From Pirellulales bacterium (lineage in GTDB: Bacteria; Planctomycetota; Planctomycetia; Pirellulales; PALSA-1355): a stretch of DNA of 64,000 bases. Under the pieces are notes generated by a model. The model was not told where the DNA came from and made no database searches. It was given only the letters and a program-made list of their open reading frames with translations. The stretch lies in the NCBI GenBank assembly GCA_963733035.1, contig CAVTBU010000006.1, positions 512,001 to 576,000 of the forward strand, given 5' to 3'. A program made the translations under genes and the position numbers. Below, in pieces: positions 5,817 to 37,559 of the stretch; within the stretch, counting starts at the first letter, position 1, and each line of letters opens with the position of its first letter.

Positions 5817-5907
5817 AGTTGCCGCACCAGCGATGCGTTTCTCGAAGCTTTCAAGTTAGTCCAGCATAATCCCCGACACGTTCAAAACGAAGTAGGAAAA
5901 CACGACT

Positions 5908-6477: not shown

Positions 6478-6520
6478 ATTGCGCGGGAGGCTCTGCCCGA
6501 CGCCTTGGTGAGCTACTGCC

Positions 6521-19389: not shown

Positions 19390-20556
19390 GTGCGAGTGGC
19401 AATCGTTCACGATTGGTTGGTTACGTATGCGGGCTCCGAGCGAGTCGTGGAGCAACTGTTGGCCATCTTTCCGCAGGCCGACGTGTTCAGCCTGATCGAT
19501 TTCGTGCCCGCACAAGAGCGAGGTTTTCTCTGCGGCAAGACCGTTCGCACCAGCTTCTTGCAGCGGATGCCGTTCGCACGTCGTGCCTACCAAAATTATC
19601 TGCCGTTGATGCCCCTGGCGATCGAGCAGTTTGACCTCTCGGGGTACGATCTGATCATTTCTAGCAATCACTGCGTCGCCAAAGGTGTGATCACCGGCCC
19701 CGACCAATTGCACGTCAGCTACATCCACACACCCATGCGATATGCTTGGGATGCCCAACATGAATACCTTTCCGGTGCGGGTTTAGACCACGGGATGCGG
19801 GGAATGCTTGCTCGCTGGATGCTGCACAAGCTGCGAATGTGGGACGCTCGCAGTGCCAACGGCGTCGACGCGTTTGTGGCAAACTCCGAGTTTATTGCAC
19901 GACGTATTGAAAAGACATATCGTCGTACGGCCGGGGTTATTTACCCGCCAGTTGATATCGATTCGTTTGCCGCGCGTAGCGATCGCGACGAATTCTATGT
20001 AACCGCCTCGCGTCTCGTCCCCTACAAACGTACGGACGTGCTGGTCGAGGCGTTCGCTCGGATGCCTCAAAAGCGGTTGGTAGTGATCGGCGAGGGACCA
20101 CAACTCGAGGCGCTTCAAGCGAGGGCTACGCCGAACGTGACGCTATTGGGTTATCAGGGCTTCGATGTGCTTCGATCGCACTTGGAGCGGGCACGTGCGT
20201 TTCTGTTTGCCGGGCGCGAAGACTTTGGCATCGTGCTGGCCGAGGCCCAGGCCGCTGGTTGTCCGCTGATTGCCTTCGGCAAGGGTGGGTGTGCCGAGAT
20301 CGTACGAGATTTGGACCGAGAGCGGCCGACTGGGGTGCTTTTTGACGAGCAGACTGCCGAGTCTGTCGTGGCAGCCGTGCAGACGTTCGAAAGTGAACCA
20401 TTCGCGATTCAAGCCGCCGCCTGTCGGGCCAATGCCGAGCGTTTCGGACAGGCCCGCTTCCGCCGCGAGTTTCACGACCTGGTGATGGACGCCTGGGAAG
20501 ACTTTCGATCGATTCGCAATCGGTCTACGCTTGTGCCGGCGCTTCGAGCGGCCTAA
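19390..20556 (+). CDS. GT4-family glycosyltransferase
   Basis: VAIVHDWL..YAGSERV, HTPMRYAWD, EDFGIVLAEA. Confidence 0.92.
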   Translation: MRVAIVHDWLVTYAGSERVVEQLLAIFPQADVFSLIDFVPAQERGFLCGKTVRTSFLQRMPFARRAYQNYLPLMPLAIEQFDLSGYDLIISSNHCVAKGVITGPDQLHVSYIHTPMRYAWDAQHEYLSGAGLDHGMRGMLARWMLHKLRMWDARSANGVDAFVANSEFIARRIEKTYRRTAGVIYPPVDIDSFAARSDRDEFYVTASRLVPYKRTDVLVEAFARMPQKRLVVIGEGPQLEALQARATPNVTLLGYQGFDVLRSHLERARAFLFAGREDFGIVLAEAQAAGCPLIAFGKGGCAEIVRDLDRERPTGVLFDEQTAESVVAAVQTFESEPFAIQAAACRANAERFGQARFRREFHDLVMDAWEDFRSIRNRSTLVPALRAA

Positions 20557-20586
20557 TGCTGCAGCGCGTCCAAGTCAGTCAATCGG

Positions 20587-21591
20587 CTAGGACGATTGCG
20601 CACTAGCGAGACTGTCGACCGGAAGCAACTCCGGAGAGTAAAAGCGGATCGCTTCTCGTAGCCCGTCGTCGAGCGACCACCGAGCACGAAAGCCGGTGAG
20701 ATCCTGCAACTTTGCGATCGAGGGCAGACGCCGCTTGACACTTCCGGCCGGTGACGGGTGCAGCGTGATATCGTCGGGACTCTGTCCGACAAGGTGCATC
20801 ATGCGCTGTGCCAGTTCAAGCATCGTCAGTTCCTCGTTGCCGCCGACGTTGACGACTTGATTTGCCGTCCGTTCGCACTCACCCACCAGTCGCGTGGCTT
20901 TCACGGCGTCGTCGATGTAGAGGAACGCCCGCGTATCGCCGTGGCCATACAGTTCGGCAATGCCGCGACGCAACCGCGTGAGAAAGTCGGGCACGATGTG
21001 CTTGTCGCCCATGCGTGGGCCAAACACGTTGTGGTATCGAATAATCGAAAATGGCACGTTGAACTGGCGGCAAGCATTAATCACCAGCACTTCGCCGTGA
21101 ATCTTGGCGGCGGCGTAGGACCATCGCTCATTAAAGACGTCGTCCACGCACAACGGCACGTTTTCATCCGTTGGCACGGGCCAGTCAAACTTCGTGACCG
21201 TCGACGCGTATGACTCGGGCGTGCCGGCATAGACGAAGCGAGTCAGTCTTTTGGTGCCGGCATACTTGTCGATCAAGTAGAAGGTCGGAAGGGTGCCCGA
21301 CCTCAGGACCTCGTATGGCCGCTCGTAAAAGTTTTGCGTGCCATTGAGCGCGGCTTCGTGATAGATCGTATCGACATCGTCGGGCAAGGCTGCCACGGCT
21401 GCCGGATCGCAGAGGTCGATCGTGTATGGCTCGACGTTCGGTCGTTGGCACAACTTGCGGTAAAGTTCGTCGTTCGCGCCGCGCGAGTGGTTGTCGACGA
21501 GCACGAGTTCGACGTCCGGCCTCTCGCTGAGGTGCCGAGCCAAGTGGTAACCGATAAAGCCGGCCGCGCCGGTGACCATGATCCGCGACAT
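20587..21591 (-). CDS. NAD-dependent nucleotide-sugar epimerase/dehydratase (extended SDR)
   Basis: TGAAGFIG, YAAAK, RYHNVFGP. Confidence 0.9.
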   Translation of the reverse strand: MSRIMVTGAAGFIGYHLARHLSERPDVELVLVDNHSRGANDELYRKLCQRPNVEPYTIDLCDPAAVAALPDDVDTIYHEAALNGTQNFYERPYEVLRSGTLPTFYLIDKYAGTKRLTRFVYAGTPESYASTVTKFDWPVPTDENVPLCVDDVFNERWSYAAAKIHGEVLVINACRQFNVPFSIIRYHNVFGPRMGDKHIVPDFLTRLRRGIAELYGHGDTRAFLYIDDAVKATRLVGECERTANQVVNVGGNEELTMLELAQRMMHLVGQSPDDITLHPSPAGSVKRRLPSIAKLQDLTGFRARWSLDDGLREAIRFYSPELLPVDSLASAQSS

Positions 21592-21604
21592 TTTTACACC
21601 GTCT

Positions 21605-22897
21605 CTAGGCCGCCGTGCGGCAAAGTTTAAGGGTTGTTTTGGCCTGAAGAGAATCCTGGTCAAACGTGACTCGGCCCAAATCACAACAATCCCAAATGTC
21701 TACCACGCGAGTTCCATGCACTCGCGCCGCGTGAACGATTTTTTCGCGTTCGCGGCTATAGAGCGAATGATTCGTGGCGATGAGCACAAACTCCGCGTCA
21801 CGCAGCGCGACGTCGAGACTGGATGTGAACTCGACGCCGGGGCTCGGCTCGATCTGATCGGCCGTGAGAAAAGGATCATTAACTAGGATCTTGGCCGGCG
21901 TCTCGCGTTGCAAATAGCGTATTAGCTTCGGCGCGAGCGAATCGCGTACGTCGTCGGCGTCGCGTTTGAACGAGTAGCCCAGCACTGCCAGTCGCTTGCC
22001 GCGCAGACTGCCATAGCGACGCACTGTTAGGTCGACGAGGTACTTTGGCAGCGACTCGTTCACTCGCCACATTTCGGTGAGAAAGCCGCCGCTCCAGTAG
22101 CCCTCGGCCAACATTCCAAAATCCTTTCGCAAGCAAGTCCCGGCGGTGAAGCCCGGTTTTCCGTGCAGCTTGCGTGGATAGTCGCGATTGGCCAATTCAA
22201 GGACTTCGTGCGGTTCAACGCCCTGATCTAGCGCGATCATCGACAATGCGTTGATGATGCCAAAATAAGCGTAACGTGAGACGTTGCAGAATAGTTTCAC
22301 CAGTTCGGCCGTGGCCCAATCGCAATGCATCGGTTCAACGCCGAGTGCGTGAAACAGTCGTTCGGCGGCCTGGGCACTGGCCCCGTCTTCGGTGCCGATA
22401 ATCTGTGGCAGCTTGTGCAATTCTTCGCGAGCTTTGCCCTCGACGATCCGTTCGGGACAGCAGGCCAGATGGACGTCGCGACCGACTTTGTGAAAGGTCC
22501 GAGTCTCGATCAGATTGGCCACGTACGCGGTCGTCTTGGGCGCGGTCGTGCTCCGCATGATGATCGTCTGGCCGGGCGCGAGGAACTCGCAAATGGATTC
22601 GATCACTTTGGTGACGTATGACAGATCGGTTTCGATGTGGGCCAGCAGCGGCGTGCCGACTGTGACGATGAAATAATCGCAATCCGCGACGTCGTGTATA
22701 TCGCCAGTGATGTGCAGCTTGCCGGAGGCCACCAATTCATCGTAGCCGGGCTCATCGAACGGCATCCGTCGCTCGATGTTGATCGAGTGCCGCACACGTT
22801 CGTTCAAGTCCACCCCCAAGACCTGCACACCGGAGTCGACCAGCGACAACGCAAGCGGCAGGCCGACTCGGCCTGTGCCAATAATGGCGACCTTCAT
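21605..22897 (-). CDS. UDP-glucose/GDP-mannose dehydrogenase-family nucleotide-sugar dehydrogenase
   Basis: GTGRVG, CPER, AELVKL, catalytic GTCLRKD, GYSFK..DDVRDS. Confidence 0.92.
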   Translation of the reverse strand: MKVAIIGTGRVGLPLALSLVDSGVQVLGVDLNERVRHSINIERRMPFDEPGYDELVASGKLHITGDIHDVADCDYFIVTVGTPLLAHIETDLSYVTKVIESICEFLAPGQTIIMRSTTAPKTTAYVANLIETRTFHKVGRDVHLACCPERIVEGKAREELHKLPQIIGTEDGASAQAAERLFHALGVEPMHCDWATAELVKLFCNVSRYAYFGIINALSMIALDQGVEPHEVLELANRDYPRKLHGKPGFTAGTCLRKDFGMLAEGYWSGGFLTEMWRVNESLPKYLVDLTVRRYGSLRGKRLAVLGYSFKRDADDVRDSLAPKLIRYLQRETPAKILVNDPFLTADQIEPSPGVEFTSSLDVALRDAEFVLIATNHSLYSREREKIVHAARVHGTRVVDIWDCCDLGRVTFDQDSLQAKTTLKLCRTAA

Positions 22898-22917
22898 GGC
22901 GATTCCTTTCTCCAGAT

Positions 22918-24435
22918 TCAAGCAGCTCGATCCATCGAGCCGCGCGAGACGAATTCAGTCTCGGTGGGAGCTGTGTCGGTCGCGACCGACTCCCCCGCGT
23001 GCAAACGCTGCAGGAGTTCAAGCCACTGCTCTCGGCATCGCTCCAGCGAGTACCGCTCAATGCGGCGCCGTCCGCGGGCAACGAGCTCGCGCTGCAGCGA
23101 GGGTGAATCCTCAGCGGCAATCATTCGTTCGATGCTGTCGGCAATCGATCTAACGTCGTAAGAATCACAATACAGCGCCGCGTCGCCGAGGACCCAGCGG
23201 TGTTCGGGAATGTCAGAGGCAATGACCGGCACTTCGCACTGCATGGCTTCCACCGGTGGAAAGCCGAAACCCTCGGCGTGCGAAGGATAGACGAGCGCTT
23301 CGGCTTGCGAATAAAGCACGCGCAATTCCTCGGACGTGACGGATTCAAGGTGGATGATGTCGCCTCGCGCCACAAGCTCGCGCATGGCATCCAGAGTTGG
23401 CTCGAATCGCCAGCCTGGTGAGCCGACGATGAGCAGTTTCAGGTTGGGCACTGATCGGGCTACCGAATTTCGAAAGCGCACGGAATTGAAAGCTTGAATC
23501 AGCCCGGGAAAGTTCTTTCGCGGCTCGAGCGTTGATACTCCCATGATATACCGCGGCGTATGTTTGAGCGGCCTGCGCGGCGCATCACCGGTGGCCGTCG
23601 AGCGCCGAGTGCGGATGATCGAGTTGATCAAGGATTCATTTGGTTCAGGGCGGTACGCGTCCGAGAGCATGTACGGAATCGTGGCACTCCGGTCACGCAG
23701 CTCAGGGTACACGTCAACCAGATTCTCGCGGGTGGGCTCTGAATTGCACACAAAAATGCTGGCGGGGCTTTGGCGAATCGAGTTGTGATGCCAACGAATG
23801 TCCCGCAACTGGGGCATCGTGTCCGGTTGAATCATTGGAATCATGTCGTGGTAGCGGACGAGCTGCTTTGTTCCGGATGGGATTCGCATCGGCCGGGCGG
23901 TTTGCACGATAAAGAAGTCAAAGCCTTGCGTGTCGAGCTTAATGGGTGATCGATTGGCTACGACTCGGCGGTACATGACATCACCGGAGATGTTCAAGAA
24001 CAGGAACTTGCCTTCTTGTACGATCGGGCGATCGTCCGGTGCCAGACTTTGCGCGAACAGATTGCGCCATAGCACGTGGTGAAATGCATTGGTGTCGGCC
24101 GGTTCCAGTTGGCCGCTGGTCTGACCACGCGCAGCCACTTGCGTGCCCAACATGCGAAGGATGCGTTTCGGTAACGACCCGCCCGTGATCCAGGGTTCGT
24201 TCACGCCCCATAGAAAGCAGGCCTGATTAGCAACTCGGTCGGCGCGAGGCGCGATTGCGGGGCAAAATTTGTGCGGACGAATTCGCGAGAAACTCGGATA
24301 CAAAAGTCCGGTCACCTCGACTTCCGGACACAGCGACAACGTCTTAAACAGCAGTCGCGTGTCTTGGGGGATACCAGAATAACCACGCAGGGCCATGGAA
24401 AGGTCCAACAGCACGCGGATCTTACGCTGGGTCAT
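22918..24435 (-). CDS. GT4-family glycosyltransferase (paralog 1)
   Basis: GIPQDTR, HDMIP, STLEPRKN, EGFGFPPVEAM. Confidence 0.9.
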   Translation of the reverse strand: MTQRKIRVLLDLSMALRGYSGIPQDTRLLFKTLSLCPEVEVTGLLYPSFSRIRPHKFCPAIAPRADRVANQACFLWGVNEPWITGGSLPKRILRMLGTQVAARGQTSGQLEPADTNAFHHVLWRNLFAQSLAPDDRPIVQEGKFLFLNISGDVMYRRVVANRSPIKLDTQGFDFFIVQTARPMRIPSGTKQLVRYHDMIPMIQPDTMPQLRDIRWHHNSIRQSPASIFVCNSEPTRENLVDVYPELRDRSATIPYMLSDAYRPEPNESLINSIIRTRRSTATGDAPRRPLKHTPRYIMGVSTLEPRKNFPGLIQAFNSVRFRNSVARSVPNLKLLIVGSPGWRFEPTLDAMRELVARGDIIHLESVTSEELRVLYSQAEALVYPSHAEGFGFPPVEAMQCEVPVIASDIPEHRWVLGDAALYCDSYDVRSIADSIERMIAAEDSPSLQRELVARGRRRIERYSLERCREQWLELLQRLHAGESVATDTAPTETEFVSRGSMDRAA

Positions 24436-24607
24436 ATCGTCATCACTTCCATGTGGGACAATTGGCTTGTCGCTACTTCGAGACCTTCGTGCGGGCGAAA
24501 GTGTCGAAAGGTAGTGTGAAATTGGCGGGGGGGTACCTTCGGCCGAAAAATTAGCACACTTCGCGATTTTCAAAAAGATCAGTCAACGAATCGCTTTCGC
24601 AAGATGA

Positions 24608-26101
24608 TCAGGCTGCCGCGCCATGGTTCAATTCGGCGGCATTCTCCGCAACCAACTTTTCGCTAGCACGCCGCTCGGTTGGGCGCAGGCTTGAGAGCAA
24701 TTCCACCCATTGGCCGCCGCAGCGCTGCCGACTGAAGTGCCTGATTCGCTCATTGCCGCGAGCTACCATTTCTCGCCGCAAGGCTGGACCTTCGTCCGAA
24801 AGCACCAGTCGCTCAATCGTGGCCGAAATGGTCGATACGTCCATGGGGTCGCAGTACACCGCCGCGTCGCCGAGCACCCAGCGATGCGCCGGCAAGTCAG
24901 ACGCAATGACTGGTACTCCGCACGACATCGCCTCGAGCGGCGGAAAGCCGAATCCTTCGGCTGTTGAGGGGAACACGAATGCCTCGGCGTGCGTGTAAAG
25001 CATGCGCAGCTCTTCGGACGTCACCTGCTCCATATGGATCAGGTCTCCCTGATCGACGAGACCACGCATGGCCTTCAGAATGGGTTGGTACTTCCAGCCC
25101 GGACTCCCGACGATGATCAACGTCAAGTCCCGGCCCCGTGGCGTTCCCTTGAGCTTGCTGAAAGCCTGGACGAGCCTGAGAAAGTTCTTTCGCGGTTCGA
25201 GCGTCGAAACCATCATCACGTAACGCAGGCGAGGCCCCGGTCGGCGTCCTCGCCCGCTGGCCGACGACCGTCGCATTTCAATGATCGAGTGAAGTGCCGC
25301 GGCGTTGGGCTGGGCGCGATAGATATCGGACAACATATACGGGATTGTTGTGGCGCGCTGATCCAGGTCGGGATGGATTCGCGTTAACTCGTCGCGCGTG
25401 GGGTCGGAGTTGCAAACGAAGTAACTTGTGCGGTTTTCGCGAATCGCGCGATGGTGCCAATTGATGACCAGCGGATTCCCCATCGTGTCGGGCTCAAGCA
25501 CCGGGATCATGTCGTGATAACGCACGATTTGCCGCGTTTCGGGGCTGGTTCGAAAGGATCGTGGGCCTTGCACGATCAAAAAGTCGTAGCCGGTTGTATC
25601 GAGAGCGATCGGGCGTCGCCGGCTAAATGTCCGCGCAAACACCATGCCGTCGGTCACGTTCGACAACAAGAAGTTACCTTGCTGCACGAGTGGTATGTCG
25701 CTGGGTGAGAGCGTTTGAGAGAATAGCAGTCGCCACAGTGTGGGCCAAAATTTGTCCGTGTCGAGCTGGTCCACGGCGGCCCCACGCGCGGCCAGCGTAC
25801 TTCCTACCACCTGAAGTCTCTGCAGCCAGCGTGCCGGGCGAGATGCCGCCCAGGCGAGATTTGGTTCGGCAAGTTTCCACAAAAACTCAGCCTGATTGGC
25901 AATCCTTACGCCGCGCGTTTCGTAGGCGCGTCGAAAGCGATGCACTCGGGCGAACTTCTGCGGCCGATAGACGAGCCCCGTAACCTCAATTTCCGGGCAC
26001 AGGGATAAGGTTTTGTATAGCAGCCGCACGTCCTGGGCGATGCCGCAATAGCCGCGGGCGGCCATTGAAAGGTCCAACAGAACGCGTATGGGCCGTGACA
26101 T
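24608..26101 (-). CDS. GT4-family glycosyltransferase (paralog 2)
   Basis: GIAQDVR, HDMIP, STLEPRKN, EGFGFPPLEAM. Confidence 0.9.
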   Translation of the reverse strand: MSRPIRVLLDLSMAARGYCGIAQDVRLLYKTLSLCPEIEVTGLVYRPQKFARVHRFRRAYETRGVRIANQAEFLWKLAEPNLAWAASRPARWLQRLQVVGSTLAARGAAVDQLDTDKFWPTLWRLLFSQTLSPSDIPLVQQGNFLLSNVTDGMVFARTFSRRRPIALDTTGYDFLIVQGPRSFRTSPETRQIVRYHDMIPVLEPDTMGNPLVINWHHRAIRENRTSYFVCNSDPTRDELTRIHPDLDQRATTIPYMLSDIYRAQPNAAALHSIIEMRRSSASGRGRRPGPRLRYVMMVSTLEPRKNFLRLVQAFSKLKGTPRGRDLTLIIVGSPGWKYQPILKAMRGLVDQGDLIHMEQVTSEELRMLYTHAEAFVFPSTAEGFGFPPLEAMSCGVPVIASDLPAHRWVLGDAAVYCDPMDVSTISATIERLVLSDEGPALRREMVARGNERIRHFSRQRCGGQWVELLSSLRPTERRASEKLVAENAAELNHGAAA

Positions 26102-26384
26102 GAGATCCTCTCCGGGAAACAGTGTGCATCCTGCACGGGAGAAAACCTAACACATGCCCCGGCGATGAAAAATCCCAAGTCGGCGGGAATTCAAGTTTGG
26201 ACGTGTCGAGTGTGCTAGCAGCTTGATGCTATTTGCTCGTGAGGGACTTGTGGCCCAAATGCAATAAAACTCCGCGAGCAGAGCACAAACGACTTGAGAA
26301 TCGTCGCACAAGGAAGCTTGCCAACGCCGCAGCGTTCGAACCGCCCCACCCACTAGAGGCGAGGTCCGTCGACCAGTCGTCGCT

Positions 26385-27485
26385 TCAAATCCCGTGGCGC
26401 AGCCTCATTTCCTGATGTCGGGTTCTGGCGATTTGGTTCAACAGGAAATCTTGATTGCACTGAACGAGCAGCTCCTCGCGGAGGGAGCGACCTAGATCAA
26501 GCGAGCTGATGTGCTTGTTGGACACGTTCGCCCGTCGACTTTCAGCGGCAGGAAAGATTTCGCCAATCATTTGATTCGCGGCGTCGGAAGGTAGCAGGTC
26601 GGCATTGCATTTTGCAAGGTTTCTCAAGGCCGACTGGCATGTCGCGTCGTCCGCCAAAAAGGAACATTGTACGTTGCACGTGAAAAAACCGTTCTCGTAG
26701 CTGTTGGTAAAACTATCGGGATCCAGTCCGCGGTCGAGAAAGAGTTTGGGGTCCGCCAAATGTACGTTCGGGCGCCGATTCACGACGTCCACCGCAAAGT
26801 TGAATTCAGAGATGAAGGATTCCAGGGGATCTCGGACGAACACCACGACACGATCAAATGGACCGATGCAATGAAGGTGGTGAAAGAGTTTCCAATGACC
26901 CGTGATCACGACCCCGCGATTCGGATCCGAACTGACGCACACGGCAGATGCTAGTTCCTGTAGATTGTCGACCGCCCCGGAGAGCGTATTCGCATTCACA
27001 TATCCCCACCCGGTTTCGGTGGCCGCGTCGAAGAAGCTGGTCCCCGCGGTTTTGGGGATGTGAACATGCCACAGCCGTCGCATCATGGGGAATGCCCGAG
27101 CGAATAGCTGAGGCATATGCAGAATCGCTTCCTTACTGGTCAAAAGAGCAGTGACCAATTGATCAAGACCATTGCAGGTTTCGATTTGGTGCCGCACGAC
27201 CGTGCGATCTTCCGGGGCTCGCTGCAGGATAGCCCTGTATGCCAGTTCCACTTGCTCGGCGGTCGGTTTGACCGATCGCAGGGCGTCGTTTTCCGCGGCC
27301 ACGGACCCTGGACCGGCCTTGCCCGCACGGACCAACTTCAGATAGTTGAATGGCACCTGGAGTGGCGATGCGGAGTTGTGGAGTAAGTATTCGAATACTT
27401 CGGAGTATCGATCGCGGCTGAAAAGTTCGCAGATCGATTCCAAGGATGATTCGACGTCGTACTGGCGGTCGGCTGTCTGGCTCAT
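26385..27485 (-). CDS. Sulfotransferase-like protein with N-terminal DUF4214-like helical module
   Basis: HIPKTAGTS (5'-PSB-like) and VRDPLESFIS (3'-PB-like); AYRAILQRAPE...LLTSKE. Confidence 0.65.
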   Translation of the reverse strand: MSQTADRQYDVESSLESICELFSRDRYSEVFEYLLHNSASPLQVPFNYLKLVRAGKAGPGSVAAENDALRSVKPTAEQVELAYRAILQRAPEDRTVVRHQIETCNGLDQLVTALLTSKEAILHMPQLFARAFPMMRRLWHVHIPKTAGTSFFDAATETGWGYVNANTLSGAVDNLQELASAVCVSSDPNRGVVITGHWKLFHHLHCIGPFDRVVVFVRDPLESFISEFNFAVDVVNRRPNVHLADPKLFLDRGLDPDSFTNSYENGFFTCNVQCSFLADDATCQSALRNLAKCNADLLPSDAANQMIGEIFPAAESRRANVSNKHISSLDLGRSLREELLVQCNQDFLLNQIARTRHQEMRLRHGI

Positions 27486-27734
27486 GTCGTTAGGGTCGCC
27501 TCGATTGCTGGCCGAGCCGACATTTGGCGGCAAAACAGTGCGGACGATGCAAACGGCGGCCTCGATCCGTGTTTGTGCGCACGCTGCCAGCGACAATCAG
27601 CCGCGCTAGCAATTCGTGGCGTGTCCCTGAAATTTGCCAGTCATTTTGGGTTTCGAATTGCCAATCGTTCGCACGCAAACGACGTTCTTCGTATAGCCGA
27701 ATCGAACTAGTGAGGGAATGGCAATATGGGGGCT

Positions 27735-28490
27735 TCAGGCGGCACGGGCGCGGTTGTGGTAAGCGTCGATCACGCGCGCCGGGTCGCCGAACTCGACCAT
27801 GCGGCCGGACTCGAGTAGCGCCACGCGGTCGCTGATCCGGGCAACCGTGCCTACGTCGTGGCTTACGAAGATCATGGTCGTACCGCGATGCCGGAATTGT
27901 TCCATCCGGTTGAGGCATTTCTGCCGAAAGCGGGAATCACCTACGGCCAGCACTTCATCGACCAGCAGAATATCGGGATCAAGGTGCACGGCGACGGAAA
28001 AGCCCAACCGCACGACCATCCCCGAGGAATACGTTCGCAGTGGAGCATCGATGAAATCATTGAGTTCGGAAAAAGCGATGATATCGGCCGTTCGTTCTTG
28101 GACTTCCTGGCGCGTCAGCCCGAGCAGCACGCCGTTGAGCAGGATGTTTTCCCGGCCGGTCAGCTGCTGGTTGAATCCGGCCCCCAGTTCCAAGAGAGGA
28201 CAAATTCGCCCGTGCGTTTCCAAAGACCCTTGGGAAGGCTTGAGAACGCCGGCAATGAGGCCCAGCGTAGTGCTTTTGCCGGCTCCATTGCGACCGATCA
28301 AACTCAGACACTCGCCGCGACGTACTTCGAACGAGACATCGAGTAGGGCGTCGAACGGCTTTCGCCGCCGAATTGCCTTGATCTGGCTTGGTAGATGCAG
28401 CACGAGGTGCTTGAAGCCTTCCCCGACTGGACTGCCCAGGTAATAGCGTTTTGATACGTCGGTTAGCCGGATGGCCACATCGCTAGACAA
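27735..28490 (-). CDS. wzt: Polysaccharide ABC exporter ATPase (Wzt-like)
   Basis: GRNGAGKST, YSSGM, LLVDEVLAVGD; TTG start overlaps the wzm stop. Confidence 0.92.
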   Translation of the reverse strand: MSSDVAIRLTDVSKRYYLGSPVGEGFKHLVLHLPSQIKAIRRRKPFDALLDVSFEVRRGECLSLIGRNGAGKSTTLGLIAGVLKPSQGSLETHGRICPLLELGAGFNQQLTGRENILLNGVLLGLTRQEVQERTADIIAFSELNDFIDAPLRTYSSGMVVRLGFSVAVHLDPDILLVDEVLAVGDSRFRQKCLNRMEQFRHRGTTMIFVSHDVGTVARISDRVALLESGRMVEFGDPARVIDAYHNRARAA

Positions 28491-29295
28491 TTTCTGCGAA
28501 CCTCCACACCTTCTTGCTATAGATGGTGAATCCGAGTCCTGCGAGTGTGACGGACCAACCGGCGGCAGCTGCCAGGTGCGAGAGGTCCACGCTGTTGCCA
28601 TAGAAAACACCCTGCCAACAAAGGATCAAATTGGCGAATGGATTCACGTATAGAATCCAGTGGTACGATGCAGGAATCATGTCGACCGAATAGACAATCG
28701 GCGTCATGTAGAATAGCGCCTGCACGGCAAGTGATGTCAGACGTTCCAGATCGCGGAAGAACAAATTACAGGTGGCGATGGTCAGCCCCACTCCCGTCAT
28801 CATCAACAATTGTAGAGCGAGAAGCGCCGGAACGGCCCACAGCCAATCCCAGTGCGGGGTCCTGCCGTAGTACCACATGAACCCCAAGATCACCGGTATC
28901 GAACAGACGAAATGGATCGATTCGTTGAACACGCTCGAGAACACCAGCATGAAGCGGTGAAAGCGGACCTTTTTGATCAGCGACGCGTTACCGAGAAAAT
29001 AGCCGTTGGCGCCAAAACAGGTGTTGGCGATCCACTGCCAAGGAAACAGACTGGCAATCAGGTACAGCGTGTAGGCTGGTACCCGGACAAAAAAGCTGAA
29101 GAATAGCGAGAAAATTAGTGCCAATACCAGCGGATGAAGCACGCTCCAGGCATAGCCCATGAACGTGTTCTTATAGCGAACCTTGAATTCCTTGCCCAAC
29201 AGGACCAGAGTCAGGTCGCGGTAGTAGACGACGGTGCGGCTAGTTGGCCAGCCGCGAGCGAGTGCCGGACTTTTCAAATTCGCATTCCTTTGCAC
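28483..29295 (-). CDS. wzm: Polysaccharide ABC exporter permease (Wzm-like)
   Basis: KVRYKNTFMGYAW, LIKKV, FRD, TPIVY, NP; six TM segments. Confidence 0.92.
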   Translation of the reverse strand: MQRNANLKSPALARGWPTSRTVVYYRDLTLVLLGKEFKVRYKNTFMGYAWSVLHPLVLALIFSLFFSFFVRVPAYTLYLIASLFPWQWIANTCFGANGYFLGNASLIKKVRFHRFMLVFSSVFNESIHFVCSIPVILGFMWYYGRTPHWDWLWAVPALLALQLLMMTGVGLTIATCNLFFRDLERLTSLAVQALFYMTPIVYSVDMIPASYHWILYVNPFANLILCWQGVFYGNSVDLSHLAAAAGWSVTLAGLGFTIYSKKVWRFAEIV

Positions 29296-29720
29296 GAATC
29301 CTCGACGGCTGGCGACCGATAAACAGATTTGCGCGACAGCGTTTCAGTCACCTTGCCATGTGTTACGCATTCCTCGACATCCAGCCTTGACATGCACGTC
29401 CGCTTGCGGAGGTGTGCCTCTGAGTTTTTCAACCCTGACGATGCACACCACTTCGGGTCGTGCCGATGAAGTGAAGTTTGCCCGTCATTGGGGGATACTG
29501 TTGGCCGAACATCGAGCGAAACAATTTCGTTTCGCCGCGCAAACTACCGACGTGCAAGGCTATACCTGGAAAGTACCGAGCAGGTCAACATGTTTTTGTC
29601 GCTCGCGGCCGGCCAGTTCAGTTTTTGCAAGTCGGGCCGACAAAATGGTCTAGGTCAAGCAGGAGCCCCTTTGCTATAAGTCCGCCTCTTCCGTCCAAGA
29701 TGAACGGTCCGCTAGCTGCC

Positions 29721-30410
29721 ATGAAAACAGAAACATCACTTCCAGTTCGCTCGTTGACGCCGCCGTCTCGAAGCAGTGCGCGATCGTTGCCAAACGTGCC
29801 AATTGGTACAACCGTCGCGGCGCGCCCCATCGCGCAAATCGCCAGCCGGATGGTCGACGTCACGGTTTGTCTGGCCATGCTGGCGGTGTTGGCCGTACCC
29901 ATGCTGCTCATCGCGGCGCTAGTGAAACTGACGAGTCGTGGGCCAGCGCTCTATCGGCAGCAGCGAATTGGACTCAATGGACGGCCGTTCGTGATTTACA
30001 AGTTCCGCACCATGGGAGTCGACGCGGAAGTGGCCACCGGACCGATCTGGGCGAGGCGCGGCGACCCAAGATGCACCTTGATCGGTCATTTTCTGCGTCG
30101 TTGGTGCCTCGACGAACTACCGCAAATGTTCAATGTGCTGAAGGGGGAAATGAGTCTTGTTGGACCGCGCCCCGAACGTCCTTACTTCGTCAAGGAATTC
30201 TCTCAACGATACCCGCAGTACCCACAGCGGCATCAAGTTCTGCCGGGTATGACCGGCTGGGCACAAGTGAACGGCTGGCGGGGCGATTCGTCGCTCGAAA
30301 AGCGGATCGAGTTCGATCTGTACTACCTACGGCACTGGACCTTGCCATTTAATCTGAAGATTATCTTGCTTACGCCTTTCCGGCTGCTAATCGACCGTCA
30401 CGGCGGTTAA
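29721..30410 (+). CDS. Priming polyprenol-phosphate phosphoglycosyl transferase (small, catalytic domain only)
   Basis: KFRTM, LDELPQ, MSLVGPRP, PGMTGWAQVNG; alternative start at 29700. Confidence 0.9.
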   Translation: MKTETSLPVRSLTPPSRSSARSLPNVPIGTTVAARPIAQIASRMVDVTVCLAMLAVLAVPMLLIAALVKLTSRGPALYRQQRIGLNGRPFVIYKFRTMGVDAEVATGPIWARRGDPRCTLIGHFLRRWCLDELPQMFNVLKGEMSLVGPRPERPYFVKEFSQRYPQYPQRHQVLPGMTGWAQVNGWRGDSSLEKRIEFDLYYLRHWTLPFNLKIILLTPFRLLIDRHGG

Positions 30411-30431: not shown

Positions 30432-32129
30432 ATGGACGCCACGCGGTATCGCCCCTATCTGCCACTGGCCGCGATTCTGCTCGGCACTGCCGTGTTGCAA
30501 GCCATTTTGCTTGTTCGCTTGCCGACAATCAGCGCCGACGGCATTATCTTCATCCGAGTTGCGCGCGAGTTGGCCGCTGCGCCGATCGAAACGATGCGAG
30601 CCGAAGACCAACACCCGGGTTTTCCGGCGATGCTCTTGGCCGCCACCTCCGTCTTGCAGGCGTGCGGATATCGCGACGATCCGGGTGTCTGGGTAACGGG
30701 CGGCCTGATTGTGTCTCTTTTGGCCGGCGTGCTGAGTGTGGCGGTCGTGTGGTGTTTTGCACGCGAGATGTTCGATACGACGATCGCCAACATTGCGGCC
30801 ATCGGTTTTGCGGTCCTGCCTGTTCCGCGCGCCGGAGCGGTTGATGCGCAGAGTGATACGCCGCACGCGTTGTTCTATCTGCTCGCGGCCTGGATGACCT
30901 CGACTGGCCTGGCCAACGGGAGCCTATGGCGGCTAGCCGCTGCGGGGCTTGCGAGCGGCCTGGCATTCTGGATTCGGCCCGAGGGCTTGGAAGTCGCGAT
31001 CGTCGCGTCACCGTTCATTCTTTGGCAGGCGTTTCGCGTAGCCTGGCCGTGGCGCAAATCGATCCTGGCGATGGTCGCGGTTGCTGGTCTGGCGTGTGTG
31101 ATTGCAACACCCTACATGCTGCTTGCCGGCAAGATTACCAGCAAGCAGTTGCTCATCTTCAAAGAAGAGCCACCCCCGAGCTATATCGAACGGCTGGCGG
31201 TGGCCGAGGAGACAGACGTAGAGCTGCCTGCTGAACAAGTTGCTAGCGGCGACAAAAGCGTGCAGCAAATCGTGTCTGCGGCAACTTCCGTGAGGTCGAC
31301 GCCGGCCTCCGGTCGGCCCACCAACGCCCCGTCCCCGCCATCCCCAATCGACGACGAGCCAGAATACTCCCCAGAACTCGTCGCGTCGGTGATCGGCTTG
31401 GCCTTTGCCGCATTCATCAATAGCATTTGTCAAGGGTTCAAGTTCGTCTTTATCCCGTTTTACTTACTCGGGAATGTGGCGCTGGCTTGGCGGCGCCCCG
31501 CCGGGATTCAGATCGCGTTTCTGGCTTGCCTTGGTGTTTCCCACATTCTGATTCTAATGGCAGTGTATGTCTTCTCGGGTTACATCGCACATCGACATAC
31601 GATTCCGTTGGTGGGATTGGCCATGCCGTTTGCCGCACTGGGGCTGTACCAGACATGTGGCGTTCTGGCCCGCTGGGTGCACGTCCCGCCGCGTTATTTG
31701 GCCGTCCCGACGTTGCTGGTCTGCTGTCTGACCGTGTTGCCGTACACGCTACGGCACTTGAACCGAGAGTTTCTACCGGTCATTGAAGCGACCACCTGGG
31801 TCAAGTCGCAACTGGCTCCAGGCGATGGGGTGGTCTGCAATTCGCCGTATGTGGGATTCTACGGTCGACTTCCTGTGGCCGAACTTTCGGCCCTTTCGCC
31901 GACGCTCGACGAAGCTCTATTGAAGGCACCCGACGCCCGCTACGACTACGTCGTCCTGCACGTCAATGCCCACGGCTTTCAGCCACGTTGGGTCGACGAG
32001 CTTGCACCATACTATCGGCCGGTCCGCGAATTTGACGATCCACAAACGTATCGCCATCCCAAGAAGGTGGTTGTTTATCGGGCCAAGGACGCGACGATTC
32101 GAAACGCCGCACGGCCGGCCAGGCCGTAG
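30432..32129 (+). CDS. GT-C-type (ArnT/PMT-like) membrane glycosyltransferase
   Basis: Early D-G..F motif after TM1, HPGFP, RPEG, many TMs, C-terminal soluble domain. Confidence 0.7.
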   Translation: MDATRYRPYLPLAAILLGTAVLQAILLVRLPTISADGIIFIRVARELAAAPIETMRAEDQHPGFPAMLLAATSVLQACGYRDDPGVWVTGGLIVSLLAGVLSVAVVWCFAREMFDTTIANIAAIGFAVLPVPRAGAVDAQSDTPHALFYLLAAWMTSTGLANGSLWRLAAAGLASGLAFWIRPEGLEVAIVASPFILWQAFRVAWPWRKSILAMVAVAGLACVIATPYMLLAGKITSKQLLIFKEEPPPSYIERLAVAEETDVELPAEQVASGDKSVQQIVSAATSVRSTPASGRPTNAPSPPSPIDDEPEYSPELVASVIGLAFAAFINSICQGFKFVFIPFYLLGNVALAWRRPAGIQIAFLACLGVSHILILMAVYVFSGYIAHRHTIPLVGLAMPFAALGLYQTCGVLARWVHVPPRYLAVPTLLVCCLTVLPYTLRHLNREFLPVIEATTWVKSQLAPGDGVVCNSPYVGFYGRLPVAELSALSPTLDEALLKAPDARYDYVVLHVNAHGFQPRWVDELAPYYRPVREFDDPQTYRHPKKVVVYRAKDATIRNAARPARP

Positions 32130-35373: not shown

Positions 35374-36820
35374 ATGAACTCGCTAGACGACCTCAGTCGC
35401 GAAATCACACGTCGGACATTGCTCGGCAATTCGGCGCGAGGTTTCGGTGCGCTGGCCCTGGCTTCGCTGCTCAACGGCGGCCTGCGTGCGGACACGTCGG
35501 ATCCGAGCCTTACCTCGTACGGCGCGCTCGGCACACTGCACTTTGCACCTAAAGCCAAGCGAGTCATTTATTTGTTCATGTCCGGCGGACCATCGCACAT
35601 CGACCTGTTCGACGCCAAGCCCAAACTCAAAGAGCTGACCGGCGAGGAACTGCCCGACTCGGTACGAATGGGTCAGCGGATTACCGGCATGACCAGCGGC
35701 CAGGCAAAGCTGCTGATGGTAGGGCCGGCCTATCCCTTCAAGAAGTATGGTCAGTGCGGCACTGAGATCACGGAAGCCATGCCGCACATCGGCAGCATCG
35801 CCGATGACATCTGCCTCGTTCGATCGTTGCATACAGATCCGATTAACCACGATCCGGCGGTCACCTACCTGCTCACCGGAAATCAACAGCCCGGCCGGCC
35901 GACGATCGGTTCCTGGGCTGCTTATGGCTTGGGGAGTGTAAACAAAAACCTGCCCGAATACGTCGTGCTACTTTCCGGCGGCGGGGGGCAGCCACTACTG
36001 GCGCTATTGGGGAAATGGCTTCTTGCCGAGCCAATATCAGGGCGTGCAATTTCGTTCGACCGGTGATCCCGTGCTGTACGTTTCCAATCCGGAGGGAATC
36101 GATCCCGCGACCCGGCGCCAGTTGCTCGACGGCGTGGAAAAACTCAACCGCATGCAACTCGAGGCGGTCGGCGATCCAGAAATTGCCACGCGAATCGACG
36201 CCTATGAAATGGCGTACCGCATGCAGACCAGCGTGCCCGAACTGATGGACATTTCCCAAGAGCCGCAGCAAGTCCTCGACATGTACGGCGCCGAGCCCGG
36301 CAAAGCGTCGTTTGCCAACAACTGCTTGCTGGCCCGACGACTCGCGGAGCGCGACGTGCGGTTCGTTCAGCTCTATCATCGTGACTGGGACCATCACGGC
36401 AGCCTGCCGAGTGAACTGAAGCGTCAATGCGGCCTGTGCGATCAGGCATCGGCCGCATTGGTGAAGGACCTCAAGCAGCGCGGCTTGTTGGACGAAACGC
36501 TAGTGATTTGGGGGGGTGAGTTCGGCCGCACGGCCTACAGCCAGGGAGCGATTAGCGAAAAGAGCTTTGGCCGCGATCATCATCCGCGTTGCTTCAGCAT
36601 TTGGATGGCCGGTGGGGGCATCAAGCCGGGGACGACGTTCGGCAAGACCGACGACTTTGGCTACAACGTCATCGAAAACGGCGTCCACGCCCACGACCTT
36701 CAAGCTACGGTCCTGCATCTGCTGGGCGTCGACCATAGGCGACTGACCTACCGGTACCAAGGCCGCGACTTCCGATTGACCGACGTTGCCGGAAAGGTAG
36801 TGCAGCCGATCCTGGCGTAG
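35374..36820 (+). CDS. DUF1501 protein, frameshift near 36003
   Basis: ORFs 35374-36066 and 36023-36820; adding GC restores [12 protein letters not shown]. Confidence 0.9.
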
Positions 36821-36906
36821 CACGATACGCGGCATACCTGTTTTCTCGTGCCTGTGGGATATTCTTCTCGTCCCAAATCCCGGCAAAGCCCCGGGACGGA
36901 ATGGGT

Positions 36907-36915
36907 TGTTATACT
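36907..36915 (+). promoter_or_regulatory. Extended -10 element (TGtTATACT) for the ECF sigma gene, near-leaderless
   Basis: Ends 8 nt before ATG at 36924; no Shine-Dalgarno visible. Confidence 0.5.
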
Positions 36916-36923
36916 GCTCGTAT

Positions 36924-37559
36924 ATGTGGCCCGACTCTTCTGAAACACAGGTCTTACTCAGCGCTGCGCGCGACGGCGACGCAGACGCGCGCAATCAATT
37001 GCTTGAGCGTCATCGCGAGGCGCTACGGCGGATGGTGGGGTTGCGCATGGATCGGGCGCTGTTGCGGCGGGTCGATGCCAGCGACATCGTGCAGGACGTG
37101 CTTGTTGAGGCAAATCGACGGCTAGCCGAATACCTCGAGTCGGCCGGAATGCCGTTTCAGCTGTGGTTGCGGCATCTGGCCCGTGATCGCATGATCAACG
37201 CGCATCGGCGGCACCATGCGGCCCGGCGGAGCGTCGACCGCGAGCAACCGTTGGAAGCGGCGCCGCATAACGATCAATCGGCATTTGATCTGGCGGCGCT
37301 CGTGCGCGATCGCGAGTTGACGCCGGCGGCTGCGGCTACGCATCACGAACTGGAGCGGCGGTTTCAAGCGGCCATCGAAACGCTCGATGACGCCGATCGC
37401 GAGGTGGTGCTGATGCGGCACTTCGAGCAGCTCTCCAACAAGGACGTTGCGCAGACCTTGGAAATCAGTGAATCGGCCGCCGGCATGCGCTATCTACGGG
37501 CGATGCGGCGCTTGCGGGCCATGTTGCAAGAGCCTCCTTCGCAAGCGAGCGAGTCGTGA
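36924..37559 (+). CDS. ECF sigma-70 factor, planctomycete-type
   Basis: RRVDASDIVQD region 2; region 4 REVVLMRHFEQLSNKDVA. Confidence 0.92.
   Translation: MWPDSSETQVLLSAARDGDADARNQLLERHREALRRMVGLRMDRALLRRVDASDIVQDVLVEANRRLAEYLESAGMPFQLWLRHLARDRMINAHRRHHAARRSVDREQPLEAAPHNDQSAFDLAALVRDRELTPAAAATHHELERRFQAAIETLDDADREVVLMRHFEQLSNKDVAQTLEISESAAGMRYLRAMRRLRAMLQEPPSQASES

What the first reader, a model, noticed from the sequence alone, without database searches (positions are those of the whole stretch)
19390..28490. Glycan-locus proteins share a C-terminal Ala-Ala tail: possible degron-coordinated surface-glycan pathway
Seen: five of the ten glycan-locus proteins end in AA. They are the GT4 at 19390 (...ALRAA), the dehydrogenase (...CRTAA), both tandem GT4s (...MDRAA, ...HGAAA) and the Wzt ATPase (...RARAA). 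The genes lie on both strands and use different codons (GCG GCC, GCT GCT, GCA GCC, GCC GCC), so this is not a DNA repeat. Among roughly 45 other CDS in the window, only the 64-aa ORF at 53508 (RKAA) ends this way. All five are predicted cytoplasmic; Wzm and the GT-C lack the tail. Known: C-terminal AA is the ClpX recognition motif of ssrA tags and of Caulobacter CtrA. Inference: synthesis and export of this glycan may be switched off together by proteolysis, for example with life-cycle stage in a budding, attaching planctomycete.
Basis: partly seen in the sequence, partly recalled or inferred. Interest (0 to 1): 0.8.

Follow-up and report, generated by a model that had tools for sequence, protein, structure and literature searches.

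The report
Conserved Ala-Ala tails on glycan enzymes
Five soluble proteins of a planctomycete surface-sugar gene cluster end in the same two alanines, their relatives keep that ending although the sequence just before it has diverged freely, and it looks most like a shared destruction tag, though no experiment shows that yet.

Summary
Five of the ten locus proteins end in Ala-Ala, with different codons and on both strands. Outside the locus, 1 of 46 window ORFs does, and 0 of 42 ORFs of at least 100 aa. In unrelated loci, 11 of 865 ORFs do.

The tail is conserved in relatives. Among listed homologues, 95 of 120 Wzt end in AA; 71 of 120 GT4a end in AA and 24 in VA; 58 of 120 tandem-GT4 end in AA and 29 in VA. 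Entropy is 1.2-1.9 bits at the last two positions and about 3.5-4 bits in the GT4 linkers. GT4a linker-plus-motif length varies from 7 to 39 residues. Relatives outside the planctomycetes lack the tail.

The shared motif is [R/K/Q]-[A/V]-A at the free C-terminus, on unrelated folds.

My best reading, at about 0.45, is an ssrA-like C-terminal degron for an AAA+ protease, giving joint turnover of the synthesis and export proteins. A non-proteolytic docking or targeting signal is the main rival. Proteolysis and the life-cycle link are untested. Six full-text searches found no prior report.

The parts
19390..20556 (+). GT4a, a family-4 glycosyltransferase of 388 aa ending in ALRAA. The Ala-Ala codons are at 20548..20553.
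   Evidence: Pfam Glycos_transf_1 and Glyco_transf_4. Of 120 listed homologues, 71 end in AA and 24 in VA. In the AF2 model the last helix ends at residue 379, residues 380-388 are coil, and pLDDT averages 54 over 381-388.
20587..21591 (-). NAD-dependent epimerase/dehydratase. Soluble, with no tail (ends in AQSS).
   Evidence: Pfam Epimerase and GDP_Man_Dehyd. No membrane-like segment. Its orthologues were not examined.
21605..22897 (-). Nucleotide-sugar dehydrogenase ending in CRTAA. The Ala-Ala codons are at 21608..21613.
   Evidence: NCBIfam TIGR03026, 284.6 bits against a cut-off of 189.8. Among 150 listed representatives, only the two closest end in AA (P0487, 75% identity; P0393, 67% identity). 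The relative at 59% identity does not.
22918..24435 (-). Tandem GT4 A, 505 aa, ending in MDRAA. The Ala-Ala codons are at 22921..22926.
   Evidence: Pfam Glycos_transf_1. Of 41 A-like homologues, 40 end in [AV]A: 30 in AA and 10 in VA.
24608..26101 (-). Tandem GT4 B, 497 aa, ending in HGAAA. The Ala-Ala codons are at 24611..24616.
   Evidence: Pfam Glycos_transf_1. Of 55 B-like homologues, 43 end in [AV]A and 48 end in Ala. The closest relatives, at 70-80% identity, show 1 AA and 4 VA, and 10 of 11 end in Ala.
26385..27596 (-). A 403-aa soluble protein, probably a sulfotransferase with a DUF4214-like N-terminal part. No tail (ends in RHGI).
   Evidence: No Pfam or NCBIfam hit. Language-model look-alikes are clusters carrying Sulfotransfer_2 (37-62% of members) and DUF4214, with scores of 0.93-0.96. 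This is a lead only.
27735..28490 (-). Wzt, the ABC-transporter ATPase, 251 aa, without a carbohydrate-binding domain, ending in RARAA. The Ala-Ala codons are at 27738..27743.
   Evidence: Pfam ABC_tran. The nearest NCBIfam models are TagH and the galactan Wzt, both below cut-off. Of 120 listed homologues, 95 end in AA, including 63 of 64 at 70% identity or above. In the AF2 model the tail is the end of the last helix, residues 237-250 of 251.
28483..29295 (-). Wzm, the ABC-2 permease. Membrane protein, no tail.
   Evidence: Pfam ABC2_membrane. Membrane-like segments found.
29478..30410 (+). Polyprenyl-phosphate phosphoglycosyl transferase, the initiating enzyme. No tail.
   Evidence: Pfam Bac_transf, E = 5e-64. 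NCBIfam TIGR03025, 295.2 bits against a cut-off of 295.55.
30432..32129 (+). GT-C-type (PMT_2) membrane glycosyltransferase, the likely periplasmic transfer step. No tail.
   Evidence: Pfam PMT_2. Six membrane-like segments.

Best explanation
The locus encodes an ABC-transporter-dependent pathway for a conserved surface glycan. It comprises an initiating phosphoglycosyl transferase, three GT4 enzymes, a nucleotide-sugar dehydrogenase, an epimerase, a probable sulfotransferase, Wzm/Wzt and a GT-C. Five of its seven soluble proteins carry a short motif, [R/K/Q]-[A/V]-A, at the free C-terminus. In the glycosyltransferases it follows a variable, disordered linker.

I think the tail is a genome-encoded, ssrA-like C-terminal degron. 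It would be read by an AAA+ protease, with ClpXP the prime candidate and membrane-bound FtsH the second. The glycosyltransferases, the dehydrogenase and the export ATPase would then turn over jointly, so the cell could reset or shut down glycan output after translation.

Shown here: the motif exists, it is enriched in the locus, it is under purifying selection, it has arisen on unrelated folds, and it is confined to planctomycete relatives.

Inferred: that a protease reads it, which protease that is, and when.
For: 1. Enrichment. 5 of 10 locus proteins end in AA, against 1 of 46 other window ORFs, 11 of 865 ORFs in 77 unrelated loci and 2 of 92 GT4 homologues in those loci.

2. Conservation. 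[AV]A ends 95 of 120 Wzt homologues, 95 of 120 GT4a homologues and 87 of 120 tandem-GT4 homologues. Entropy at positions -1 and -2 is 1.2-1.9 bits, against about 3.5-4 bits in the GT4 linkers.

3. Anchoring to the free end. In GT4a the linker plus motif is 7-39 residues long, with the motif always last.

4. Trees built without the tails. The Wzt AA label needs 2 changes among 120 rows. In GT4a the AA label needs 13 changes and the VA label 9, but the combined [AV]A class needs only 5.

5. Convergence on unrelated folds: GT-B, ABC nucleotide-binding domain and Rossmann dehydrogenase. A sugar C-methyltransferase in a related cluster also ends in KRAA (L001:3757-5109).

6. Co-occurrence. In 28 of 33 putative shared contigs, every tail recovered is [AV]A. 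Contigs were matched by length only.

7. Accessibility. The GT4a tail is coil, with mean pLDDT 54 over residues 381-388.

8. Fit to published ClpX specificity.
- Ala-Ala with a free carboxylate is the main determinant (PMC7652416, passages).
- 91% of the top 100 tags in an E. coli screen end in Ala-Ala. FKLVA was degraded with a KM similar to YALAA. Upstream Leu, and Arg at position 2, are favourable (PMC10862746, passages).

9. Precedents.
- AA in 67 of 71 sigma-AntA orthologues correctly predicted a ClpXP degron that AA-to-DD abolishes (PMC7142297, passages).
- LpxC carries a C-terminal FtsH degron, and poly-Ala tails go to ClpX in B. subtilis (table in PMC8138137).
- Tag-dependent ClpX substrate selection drives differentiation in Chlamydia (PMC13463777, passages). 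That Chlamydia is a PVC relative of planctomycetes is my own knowledge.
Against: No degradation data exist, and no protease or adaptor gene lies in the window.

The antepenultimate residue is mostly Arg, Lys or Gln rather than the Leu of ssrA. The dehydrogenase has Thr there, and short polar residues at that position were depleted in the E. coli screen. The tandem GT4 A family has Asp or Glu at -4, whereas enriched tags were neutral or positive. In that screen 39% of AA-ending tags were weak, so AA alone does not prove a degron.

The closest tandem GT4 B orthologues end in SA, YA, PA or IA as often as in AA or VA.

A distant clade of 10 tandem-GT4 homologues conserves a tail ending in AAE. A terminal acidic residue was non-functional in E. 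coli (YALAD). So in that clade the tail is either not a plain AA degron or is masked.

The Wzt tail is modelled as the end of a fairly confident helix (pLDDT 84 for residues 241-250). It may not be free.

Two soluble locus proteins lack the tail. In L001 the tandem-GT4 orthologue ends in VV.

Dehydrogenase support rests on two fragment sequences.
Confidence: 0.45

Rival explanations
1. The tail is a non-proteolytic address or docking signal. A protein that binds C-termini, of the PDZ-like or TPR-like kind or a component of the pathway itself, would read the free [R/K/Q]-[A/V]-A end. It would gather the soluble enzymes and the Wzt ATPase into one membrane-associated assembly line, or place them at a particular site in the cell.
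For: The conservation, end-anchoring, convergence and co-occurrence evidence fits this reading equally well. Family-specific conservation extends to positions -4 and -5: [SP]-L-R in GT4a and [LM]-[DE]-R in tandem GT4 A. That is more than a minimal AA degron needs. The distant clade with a conserved AAE ending, and one Wzt homologue ending in RAAE (P0218), would fit a receptor that co-evolves with its ligand. A tail on the transporter ATPase itself makes sense if the transporter belongs to the assembly.
Against: No candidate receptor was found. The window and the L001 neighbours contain no PDZ or TPR protein. The shared part of the motif is only 2-3 residues, which is little for a specific docking site. 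I cannot show that P0218 and the AAE glycosyltransferases come from one lineage.
Confidence: 0.25
2. Each tail serves a separate role within its own protein, such as packing against the domain, dimer contacts in Wzt, or membrane contact. The similarity between families would then be convergence without a common reader.
For: The Wzt tail is the end of a modelled helix, with conserved residues at -5, -7 and -8. The upstream preferences are family-specific.
Against: In GT4a the tail sits at the end of a variable, low-confidence linker, 7-39 residues beyond the last conserved residue. That argues against a fixed intramolecular contact. The same two terminal residues on at least three unrelated folds within one locus is unlikely without a shared cause.
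Confidence: 0.1
3. The tails reflect chance, base composition, or a signal at the nucleic-acid level such as termination context or translational coupling, in an Ala-rich proteome with 59% G+C.
For: Ala makes up 10.7% of the residues in the window ORF set, and 7 of the 46 other window ORFs end in Ala. The finding was chosen after the fact from a large scan.
Against: The codons, stop codons and downstream contexts all differ. AA ends 1.3-1.7% of ORFs in the control loci, including the GC-rich ones. The tail is kept in hundreds of homologues while the adjacent linker positions diverge. The tree labels cluster far below the shuffled expectation: 2, 5 and 9 changes against shuffled means of 23-26, with 0 of 500 shuffles as low.
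Confidence: 0.03

Closest known systems
ssrA-type (C-motif-1) ClpX degrons: the tmRNA tag, Caulobacter CtrA and Streptomyces sigma-AntA
   Same: Terminal Ala-Ala with a free carboxylate is the key element (PMC7652416). A VA ending is also accepted by E. coli ClpXP (PMC10862746). For sigma-AntA, conservation in orthologues (67 of 71) was the clue to the degron (PMC7142297). The CtrA degron listed in PMC8138137 ends in NAA.
   Different: Here the antepenultimate residue is mostly Arg, Lys or Gln, not Leu. The tail sits on five enzymes or transport proteins of one pathway, not on a single regulator or on failed translation products. No degradation has been shown.
The C-terminal FtsH degron of LpxC, in E. 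coli lipid A synthesis
   Same: An envelope-glycolipid enzyme whose level is set by an AAA+ protease through a non-polar C-terminal tail ending in Leu-Ala (table in PMC8138137). A membrane-bound protease would sit next to membrane-associated glycan enzymes.
   Different: LpxC is one committed-step enzyme, whereas here several steps and the exporter are tagged. The tail sequences are unrelated apart from the terminal Ala.
Ala-tails added by ribosome quality control and read by ClpXP in B. subtilis
   Same: A run of C-terminal Ala acts as a degradation signal (table in PMC8138137; introduction of PMC7652416). Several Wzt homologues end in 4-5 alanines, for example P0200, P0208, P0221 and P0222.
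   Different: Those tails are added after translation to stalled chains. These are encoded in the genes and conserved.
C-terminal tripeptide targeting signals and C-terminus-binding domains: peroxisomal PTS1 with its TPR receptor, and PDZ ligands (recalled, not tested here)
   Same: A very short motif at the free C-terminus, following a variable linker, shared by functionally related enzymes with unrelated folds.
   Different: No receptor or compartment is known here. The comparison rests on memory and on the logic of the motif alone.

Membership tests
ClpX C-motif-1 (ssrA-like) degron | Terminal Ala-Ala (or a close variant) with a free alpha-carboxylate | tested here: met
   All five window proteins end in AA. 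[AV]A ends 95/120, 95/120 and 87/120 listed homologues of Wzt, GT4a and the tandem GT4s. A VA tag was degraded like an AA tag in E. coli.
ClpX C-motif-1 (ssrA-like) degron | The tail is accessible or unstructured | tested here: inconclusive
   GT4a residues 380-388 are coil, with mean pLDDT 54 over 381-388. The GT4 linkers are variable and rich in Ala, Pro, Ser, Arg and Gly. The Wzt tail is the end of a helix with pLDDT 84.
ClpX C-motif-1 (ssrA-like) degron | Favourable upstream residues over about 5 positions. In E. coli the consensus is [LFYW]-[LAR]-L-A-A. Pro, His, Gly and short polar residues are disfavoured at position 3, and enriched tags are neutral or positive. | tested here: inconclusive
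   GT4a (L-R-A-A) and Wzt (R-A-R-A-A) look compatible. Tandem GT4 A has Asp or Glu at -4, the dehydrogenase has Thr at -3, and tandem GT4 B has Gly at -4. The rules come from E. coli, not from a planctomycete.
ClpX C-motif-1 (ssrA-like) degron | ClpXP-dependent degradation that AA-to-DD abolishes | not testable with these tools
   Needs experiments. No ClpX or ClpP gene lies in the window.
ABC-transporter-dependent (Wzm/Wzt) glycan pathway | ABC-2 permease plus ATPase, a polyprenyl-phosphate initiating transferase and cytoplasmic glycosyltransferases in one locus | tested here: met
   Pfam ABC2_membrane, ABC_tran, Bac_transf and three Glycos_transf_1 proteins. The nearest NCBIfam models are TagH and the galactan Wzt/Wzm, below their cut-offs.
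ABC-transporter-dependent (Wzm/Wzt) glycan pathway | A C-terminal carbohydrate-binding domain on Wzt, as in pathways that cap the glycan chain (this feature is recalled) | tested here: not met
   Wzt has 251 aa and consists of the ATPase domain only. It therefore resembles the class without a binding domain. This does not affect membership of the broader pathway type.
PDZ- or TPR-type C-terminal docking system | A cognate receptor protein that co-occurs with the motif | tested here: not met
   No PDZ or TPR domain in the 63 proteins scanned from the window and L001. The rest of the genome was not available.

The most novel reading that the evidence does not exclude
The [R/K/Q]-[A/V]-A tail is a pathway-wide address tag read by a dedicated, still unknown C-terminus-binding receptor. 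It would work like a bacterial counterpart of a peroxisomal PTS1 signal, assembling or localising a whole glycan production line, exporter motor included, in planctomycetes. The sister clade that conserves an AAE ending would mark co-evolution of tag and receptor.
Probability: 0.2. Interest if true: 0.9.

Novelty: new variant of a known kind. Interest (0 to 1): 0.72.

Why it matters
C-terminal Ala-Ala degrons are known on single regulators and on failed translation products. A conserved tag of the same kind on three glycosyltransferases, a sugar dehydrogenase and the export ATPase of one pathway would be different. It would amount to a post-translational regulon, in which one recognition machine sets the lifetime, stoichiometry or assembly of a whole surface-glycan production line.

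In transporters without a glycan-binding domain, chain length is thought to depend on the balance between synthesis and export (recalled). Joint control of both sides would therefore be meaningful.

The finding also gives a concrete, cheap entry point into regulated proteolysis in Planctomycetota. My searches found nothing published on that subject. In addition, it provides a simple sequence marker for finding the rest of the tagged protein set in any planctomycete genome.

Tried and rejected
1. Syntenic loci. Of 78 loci, only L001 is a close relative (59% identity), and it is only partly syntenic.

2. Dehydrogenase. The only search left was the library clustered at 50% identity, which holds few close orthologues. 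Support there is weak.

3. DNA-level explanation. Rejected, because codons, stop codons and downstream contexts differ.

4. Composition or chance. Rejected.

5. Receptor or protease in the neighbourhood. None was found by Pfam in 55 window proteins and 8 L001 proteins.

6. tmRNA, to compare the organism's own ssrA tag. The window has no tRNA or tmRNA gene and no Rfam family.

7. Same-contig pairing. It is a proxy, not proof.

8. Complex prediction was not run. There is no specific candidate partner, and a ClpX hexamer exceeds the size limit.

9. Taxon of the AAE clade. Not determined.

10. Prior reports. Full-text searches found no paper on this motif or on planctomycete Clp substrates. One search retrieved the LpxC literature only. 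Subscription-only papers are not covered by these searches.

Full report
**What is in the window**

The window comes from a planctomycete. It encodes PSCyt1, PSCyt2 and PSD1 proteins and several DUF1501 proteins, and has about 59-60% G+C.

Between 19390 and 32129 lies a glycan locus of the ABC-transporter type:
- GT4a, 19390..20556 (+)
- an epimerase/dehydratase, 20587..21591 (-)
- a nucleotide-sugar dehydrogenase, 21605..22897 (-), TIGR03026 above cut-off
- two tandem paralogous GT4 enzymes, 22918..24435 and 24608..26101 (-)
- a 403-aa protein with no Pfam or NCBIfam hit, 26385..27596 (-); its language-model look-alikes are Sulfotransfer_2/DUF4214 clusters
- Wzt, 27735..28490 (-), 251 aa, ATPase domain only
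- Wzm, 28483..29295 (-)
- a Bac_transf initiating transferase, 29478..30410 (+)
- a PMT_2-type GT-C, 30432..32129 (+)

These assignments rest.

The inferred pathway is as follows. The glycan is initiated on a polyprenyl phosphate and elongated in the cytoplasm by the GT4 enzymes. It is possibly sulfated, exported by Wzm/Wzt, and transferred in the periplasm by the GT-C. This follows from the family assignments and was not tested.

Five of the ten proteins end in Ala-Ala: ALRAA, CRTAA, MDRAA, HGAAA and RARAA. Their codons are GCG GCC, GCG GCC, GCT GCT, GCA GCC and GCC GCC. The stop codons and downstream sequences differ, and the genes lie on both strands.

A hydropathy scan finds no membrane-like segment in seven of the ten proteins. 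Five of those seven carry the tail, and the three membrane proteins do not.

In a mechanical ORF set of 58, 46 ORFs lie outside the locus. One of them ends in AA, the 64-aa ORF at 53508, which has no Pfam hit. None of the 42 ORFs of at least 100 aa does.

Fisher's exact test gives p = 3.6e-4 and p = 9.7e-5 for these two comparisons. As a wider background, 11 of 865 ORFs of at least 150 aa (1.3%) end in AA in 77 unrelated, mostly glycan-type loci from other phyla. In the loci with at least 55% G+C the figure is 7 of 420, and VA ends 1 of 865. Against 1.7%, five or more of ten has a binomial P of 3e-7.

The finding was picked after the fact, so this statistic alone would not settle the matter. 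Conservation does.

**The tail is conserved in relatives**

Counts are over the 120 best homologues listed per search. In each list one row is the window's own protein.
- Wzt: 95 end in AA. By identity to the window protein this is 11 of 11 at 80% or above, 52 of 53 at 70-80%, and 32 of 56 at 60-70%.
- GT4a: 71 end in AA and 24 in VA, with consensus [S/P]-L-R-[A/V]-A. The named homologues from Thauera and Halothiobacillus lack the tail.
- Tandem GT4: 58 end in AA, 29 in VA and 10 in AE. Split by best match, 40 of 41 A-like sequences end in [AV]A. Of 55 B-like sequences, 43 end in [AV]A and 48 end in Ala. Of 23 distant sequences below 45% identity, 3 end in AA and 10 in AE.
- Dehydrogenase: the only search left used a library clustered at 50% identity. 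Of 150 listed representatives, two end in AA, and they are the two closest (fragments at 75% and 67% identity). The next, at 59%, does not, nor do the remaining 147.

In the 77 unrelated loci, 2 of 92 GT4 homologues, 0 of 6 Wzt homologues and 0 of 11 GT4a homologues end in AA.

**Selection acts on the free end**

Entropy counted from the C-terminus is 1.2-1.9 bits at positions -1 and -2. In the two GT4 families it is about 3.5-4.0 bits from position -6 back. In Wzt the positions behind the tail are mixed: 2.1-3.7 bits over positions -3 to -15, because several belong to the conserved last helix.

The stretch from the last conserved domain residue to the end is 7-39 residues in motif-bearing GT4a homologues (median 26). 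It is 17-35 in the tandem GT4s and mostly 7 in Wzt. The motif is always at the very end.

Trees were built with the tails removed. The Wzt AA label needs only 2 changes among 120 rows. In GT4a the AA label needs 13 changes and the VA label 9, but the combined [AV]A class needs only 5. The tandem family needs 9 changes for [AV]A, and its AE group forms a single clade. Repeated Ala/Val switching within an otherwise stable class is what purifying selection on a degenerate motif would produce.

These are FastTree trees with weak support on many branches, and related sequences share labels. The counts therefore describe a pattern and are not a formal test.

In 28 of them, every tail recovered is [AV]A. 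This is a proxy only.

**Structure**

The GT4a model is confident (mean pLDDT 91). Its last helix ends at residue 379, and residues 380-388 are coil, with mean pLDDT 54 over 381-388.

In the Wzt model (mean pLDDT 83) the tail is the end of the last helix, residues 237-250 of 251. The pLDDT is 84 for residues 241-250 and 63 for the last residue. The glycosyltransferase tail looks free. The Wzt tail may be less so.

**The one related locus**

L001, from a Planctomycetia MAG, shares the GT-C, the initiating transferase and a tandem-GT4 orthologue, but otherwise carries a different set of sugar genes.
- A sugar C-methyltransferase there ends in KRAA.
- A GDP-mannose dehydratase ends in KTA.
- The tandem-GT4 orthologue ends in ERVV.
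- A further GT4 ends in AKV.

So the tail appears on yet another fold in a related pathway, but it is not universal.

**What it most likely is**

The shared element is [R/K/Q]-[A/V]-A with a free carboxylate. It has arisen on unrelated folds of one pathway, is confined to planctomycete relatives, and is exposed in at least the glycosyltransferases. A common reader acting in trans is the economical explanation.

The best-known reader of such ends is ClpX.
- In a random-tag screen in E. coli, 91% of the top 100 tags ended in Ala-Ala. The best tag, FKLVA, ended in VA and was degraded with a KM similar to YALAA. Upstream Leu, and Arg at position 2, were favourable. Yet 39% of AA-ending tags were weak, and YALAD was non-functional (PMC10862746, passages).
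- For Streptomyces sigma-AntA, AA in 67 of 71 orthologues led to the demonstration of a ClpXP degron that AA-to-DD abolishes (PMC7142297, passages).
- LpxC shows that an envelope-glycolipid enzyme can be controlled through a C-terminal tail by FtsH, and poly-Ala tails go to ClpX in B. subtilis (table in PMC8138137).
- In Chlamydia, tag-dependent ClpX substrate choice drives differentiation (PMC13463777, passages).

I therefore rate a degron read by an AAA+ protease at about 0.45.

**What speaks against it, and the rivals**

- The -3 residue is rarely Leu. Some tails carry residues disfavoured in E. coli: Thr at -3 in the dehydrogenase, Asp or Glu at -4 in tandem GT4 A, and Gly at -4 in tandem GT4 B.
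- The closest tandem GT4 B orthologues often end in SA, YA, PA or IA.
- A clade of ten distant homologues conserves an AAE ending, and one Wzt homologue (P0218) ends in RAAE. A terminal acidic residue should block a plain AA degron. It would fit a masked degron, or a different receptor that co-evolved with its tag.
- Two soluble locus proteins have no tail.
- No protease, adaptor or C-terminus-binding protein is encoded nearby.

A non-proteolytic docking or targeting signal explains the conservation data equally well, and I rate it at about 0.25. Separate roles within each protein get about 0.1. Chance, composition or a DNA-level signal gets about 0.03. The remaining probability is for something not considered here.

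**Comparison with what is known, and novelty**

The tail works like a C-motif-1 degron in its defining sequence feature, which was tested and met. Accessibility and upstream context are inconclusive, and protease dependence cannot be tested here. I do not file it as a proven member.

What is new is the context: a conserved, clade-specific tag on several enzymes and on the exporter ATPase of a single glycan pathway.

Five full-text searches found no report of it or of planctomycete Clp substrates. A sixth search was for LpxC and FtsH. Subscription-only journals are not covered.

I rate it a new variant of a known kind, with interest 0.72.

**What stayed unchecked**

- Tails of the other five locus proteins in orthologous loci.
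- A genome-wide census of C-termini.
- The organism's tmRNA tag.
- The taxon and gene neighbours of the AAE clade.

Noticed in passing
Homologues P0099-P0118 (tandem-GT4 family) and P0218 (Wzt family); no window coordinates: A distant clade of 10 tandem-GT4 homologues conserves a different tail, [D/E]-L-A-A-A-E, and forms a single clade on the tree. One Wzt homologue at 62% identity ends in K-R-A-A-E. This may be co-variation of the tag across families in another lineage.
   Followed up: partly
window 26385..27596 (-): A 403-aa locus protein has no Pfam or NCBIfam hit. Language-model look-alikes point to a Sulfotransfer_2 enzyme with a DUF4214-like N-terminal part, so the glycan may be sulfated. 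It has no AA tail.
   Followed up: partly
window 35374..36066 and 36023..36820 (+): One DUF1501 gene is split into two overlapping ORFs in different frames. They match Pfam profile positions 1-120 and 132-390. This is a frameshift, a pseudogene or a sequencing error.
   Followed up: no
L001:3757-5109 (-), L001:9947-11518 (+): In the only closely related locus, a sugar C-methyltransferase (Methyltransf_14, _23 and _13) ends in KRAA, while the tandem-GT4 orthologue ends in ERVV. The tail therefore spreads to a further fold but is not universal.
   Followed up: partly
Wzt homologues P0200, P0208, P0217, P0219, P0221, P0222: A subgroup of Wzt relatives at 60-66% identity ends in runs of 3-5 alanines. 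These resemble encoded versions of the Ala-tails added by ribosome quality control.
   Followed up: no
window 19390..28490, compared: GT4a and Wzt have relatives at 85-88% identity on many metagenomic contigs, and the motif-bearing locus recurs widely. That is unusually conserved for an O-antigen-like locus and suggests a housekeeping glycan.
   Followed up: no
window 4658..7513: An EF-P gene (5908..6477) is followed by a class-II tRNA-synthetase-like gene of 330 aa (6521..7513). A radical-SAM gene on the opposite strand lies upstream (4658..5695). From memory, this looks like an EF-P lysylation set (EpmA- and EpmB-like).
   Followed up: no
window 53508..53702 (+): This is the only other ORF in the window that ends in AA (RKAA). 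It has 64 aa and no Pfam hit, and whether it is a real gene is open.
   Followed up: partly
window 36906..39262 (+): An ECF sigma factor gene overlaps by 4 bases the start of a Ser/Thr protein kinase gene, just downstream of a PSCyt/PSD1 and DUF1501 pair. This is a possible regulatory pair next to the glycan locus.
   Followed up: no
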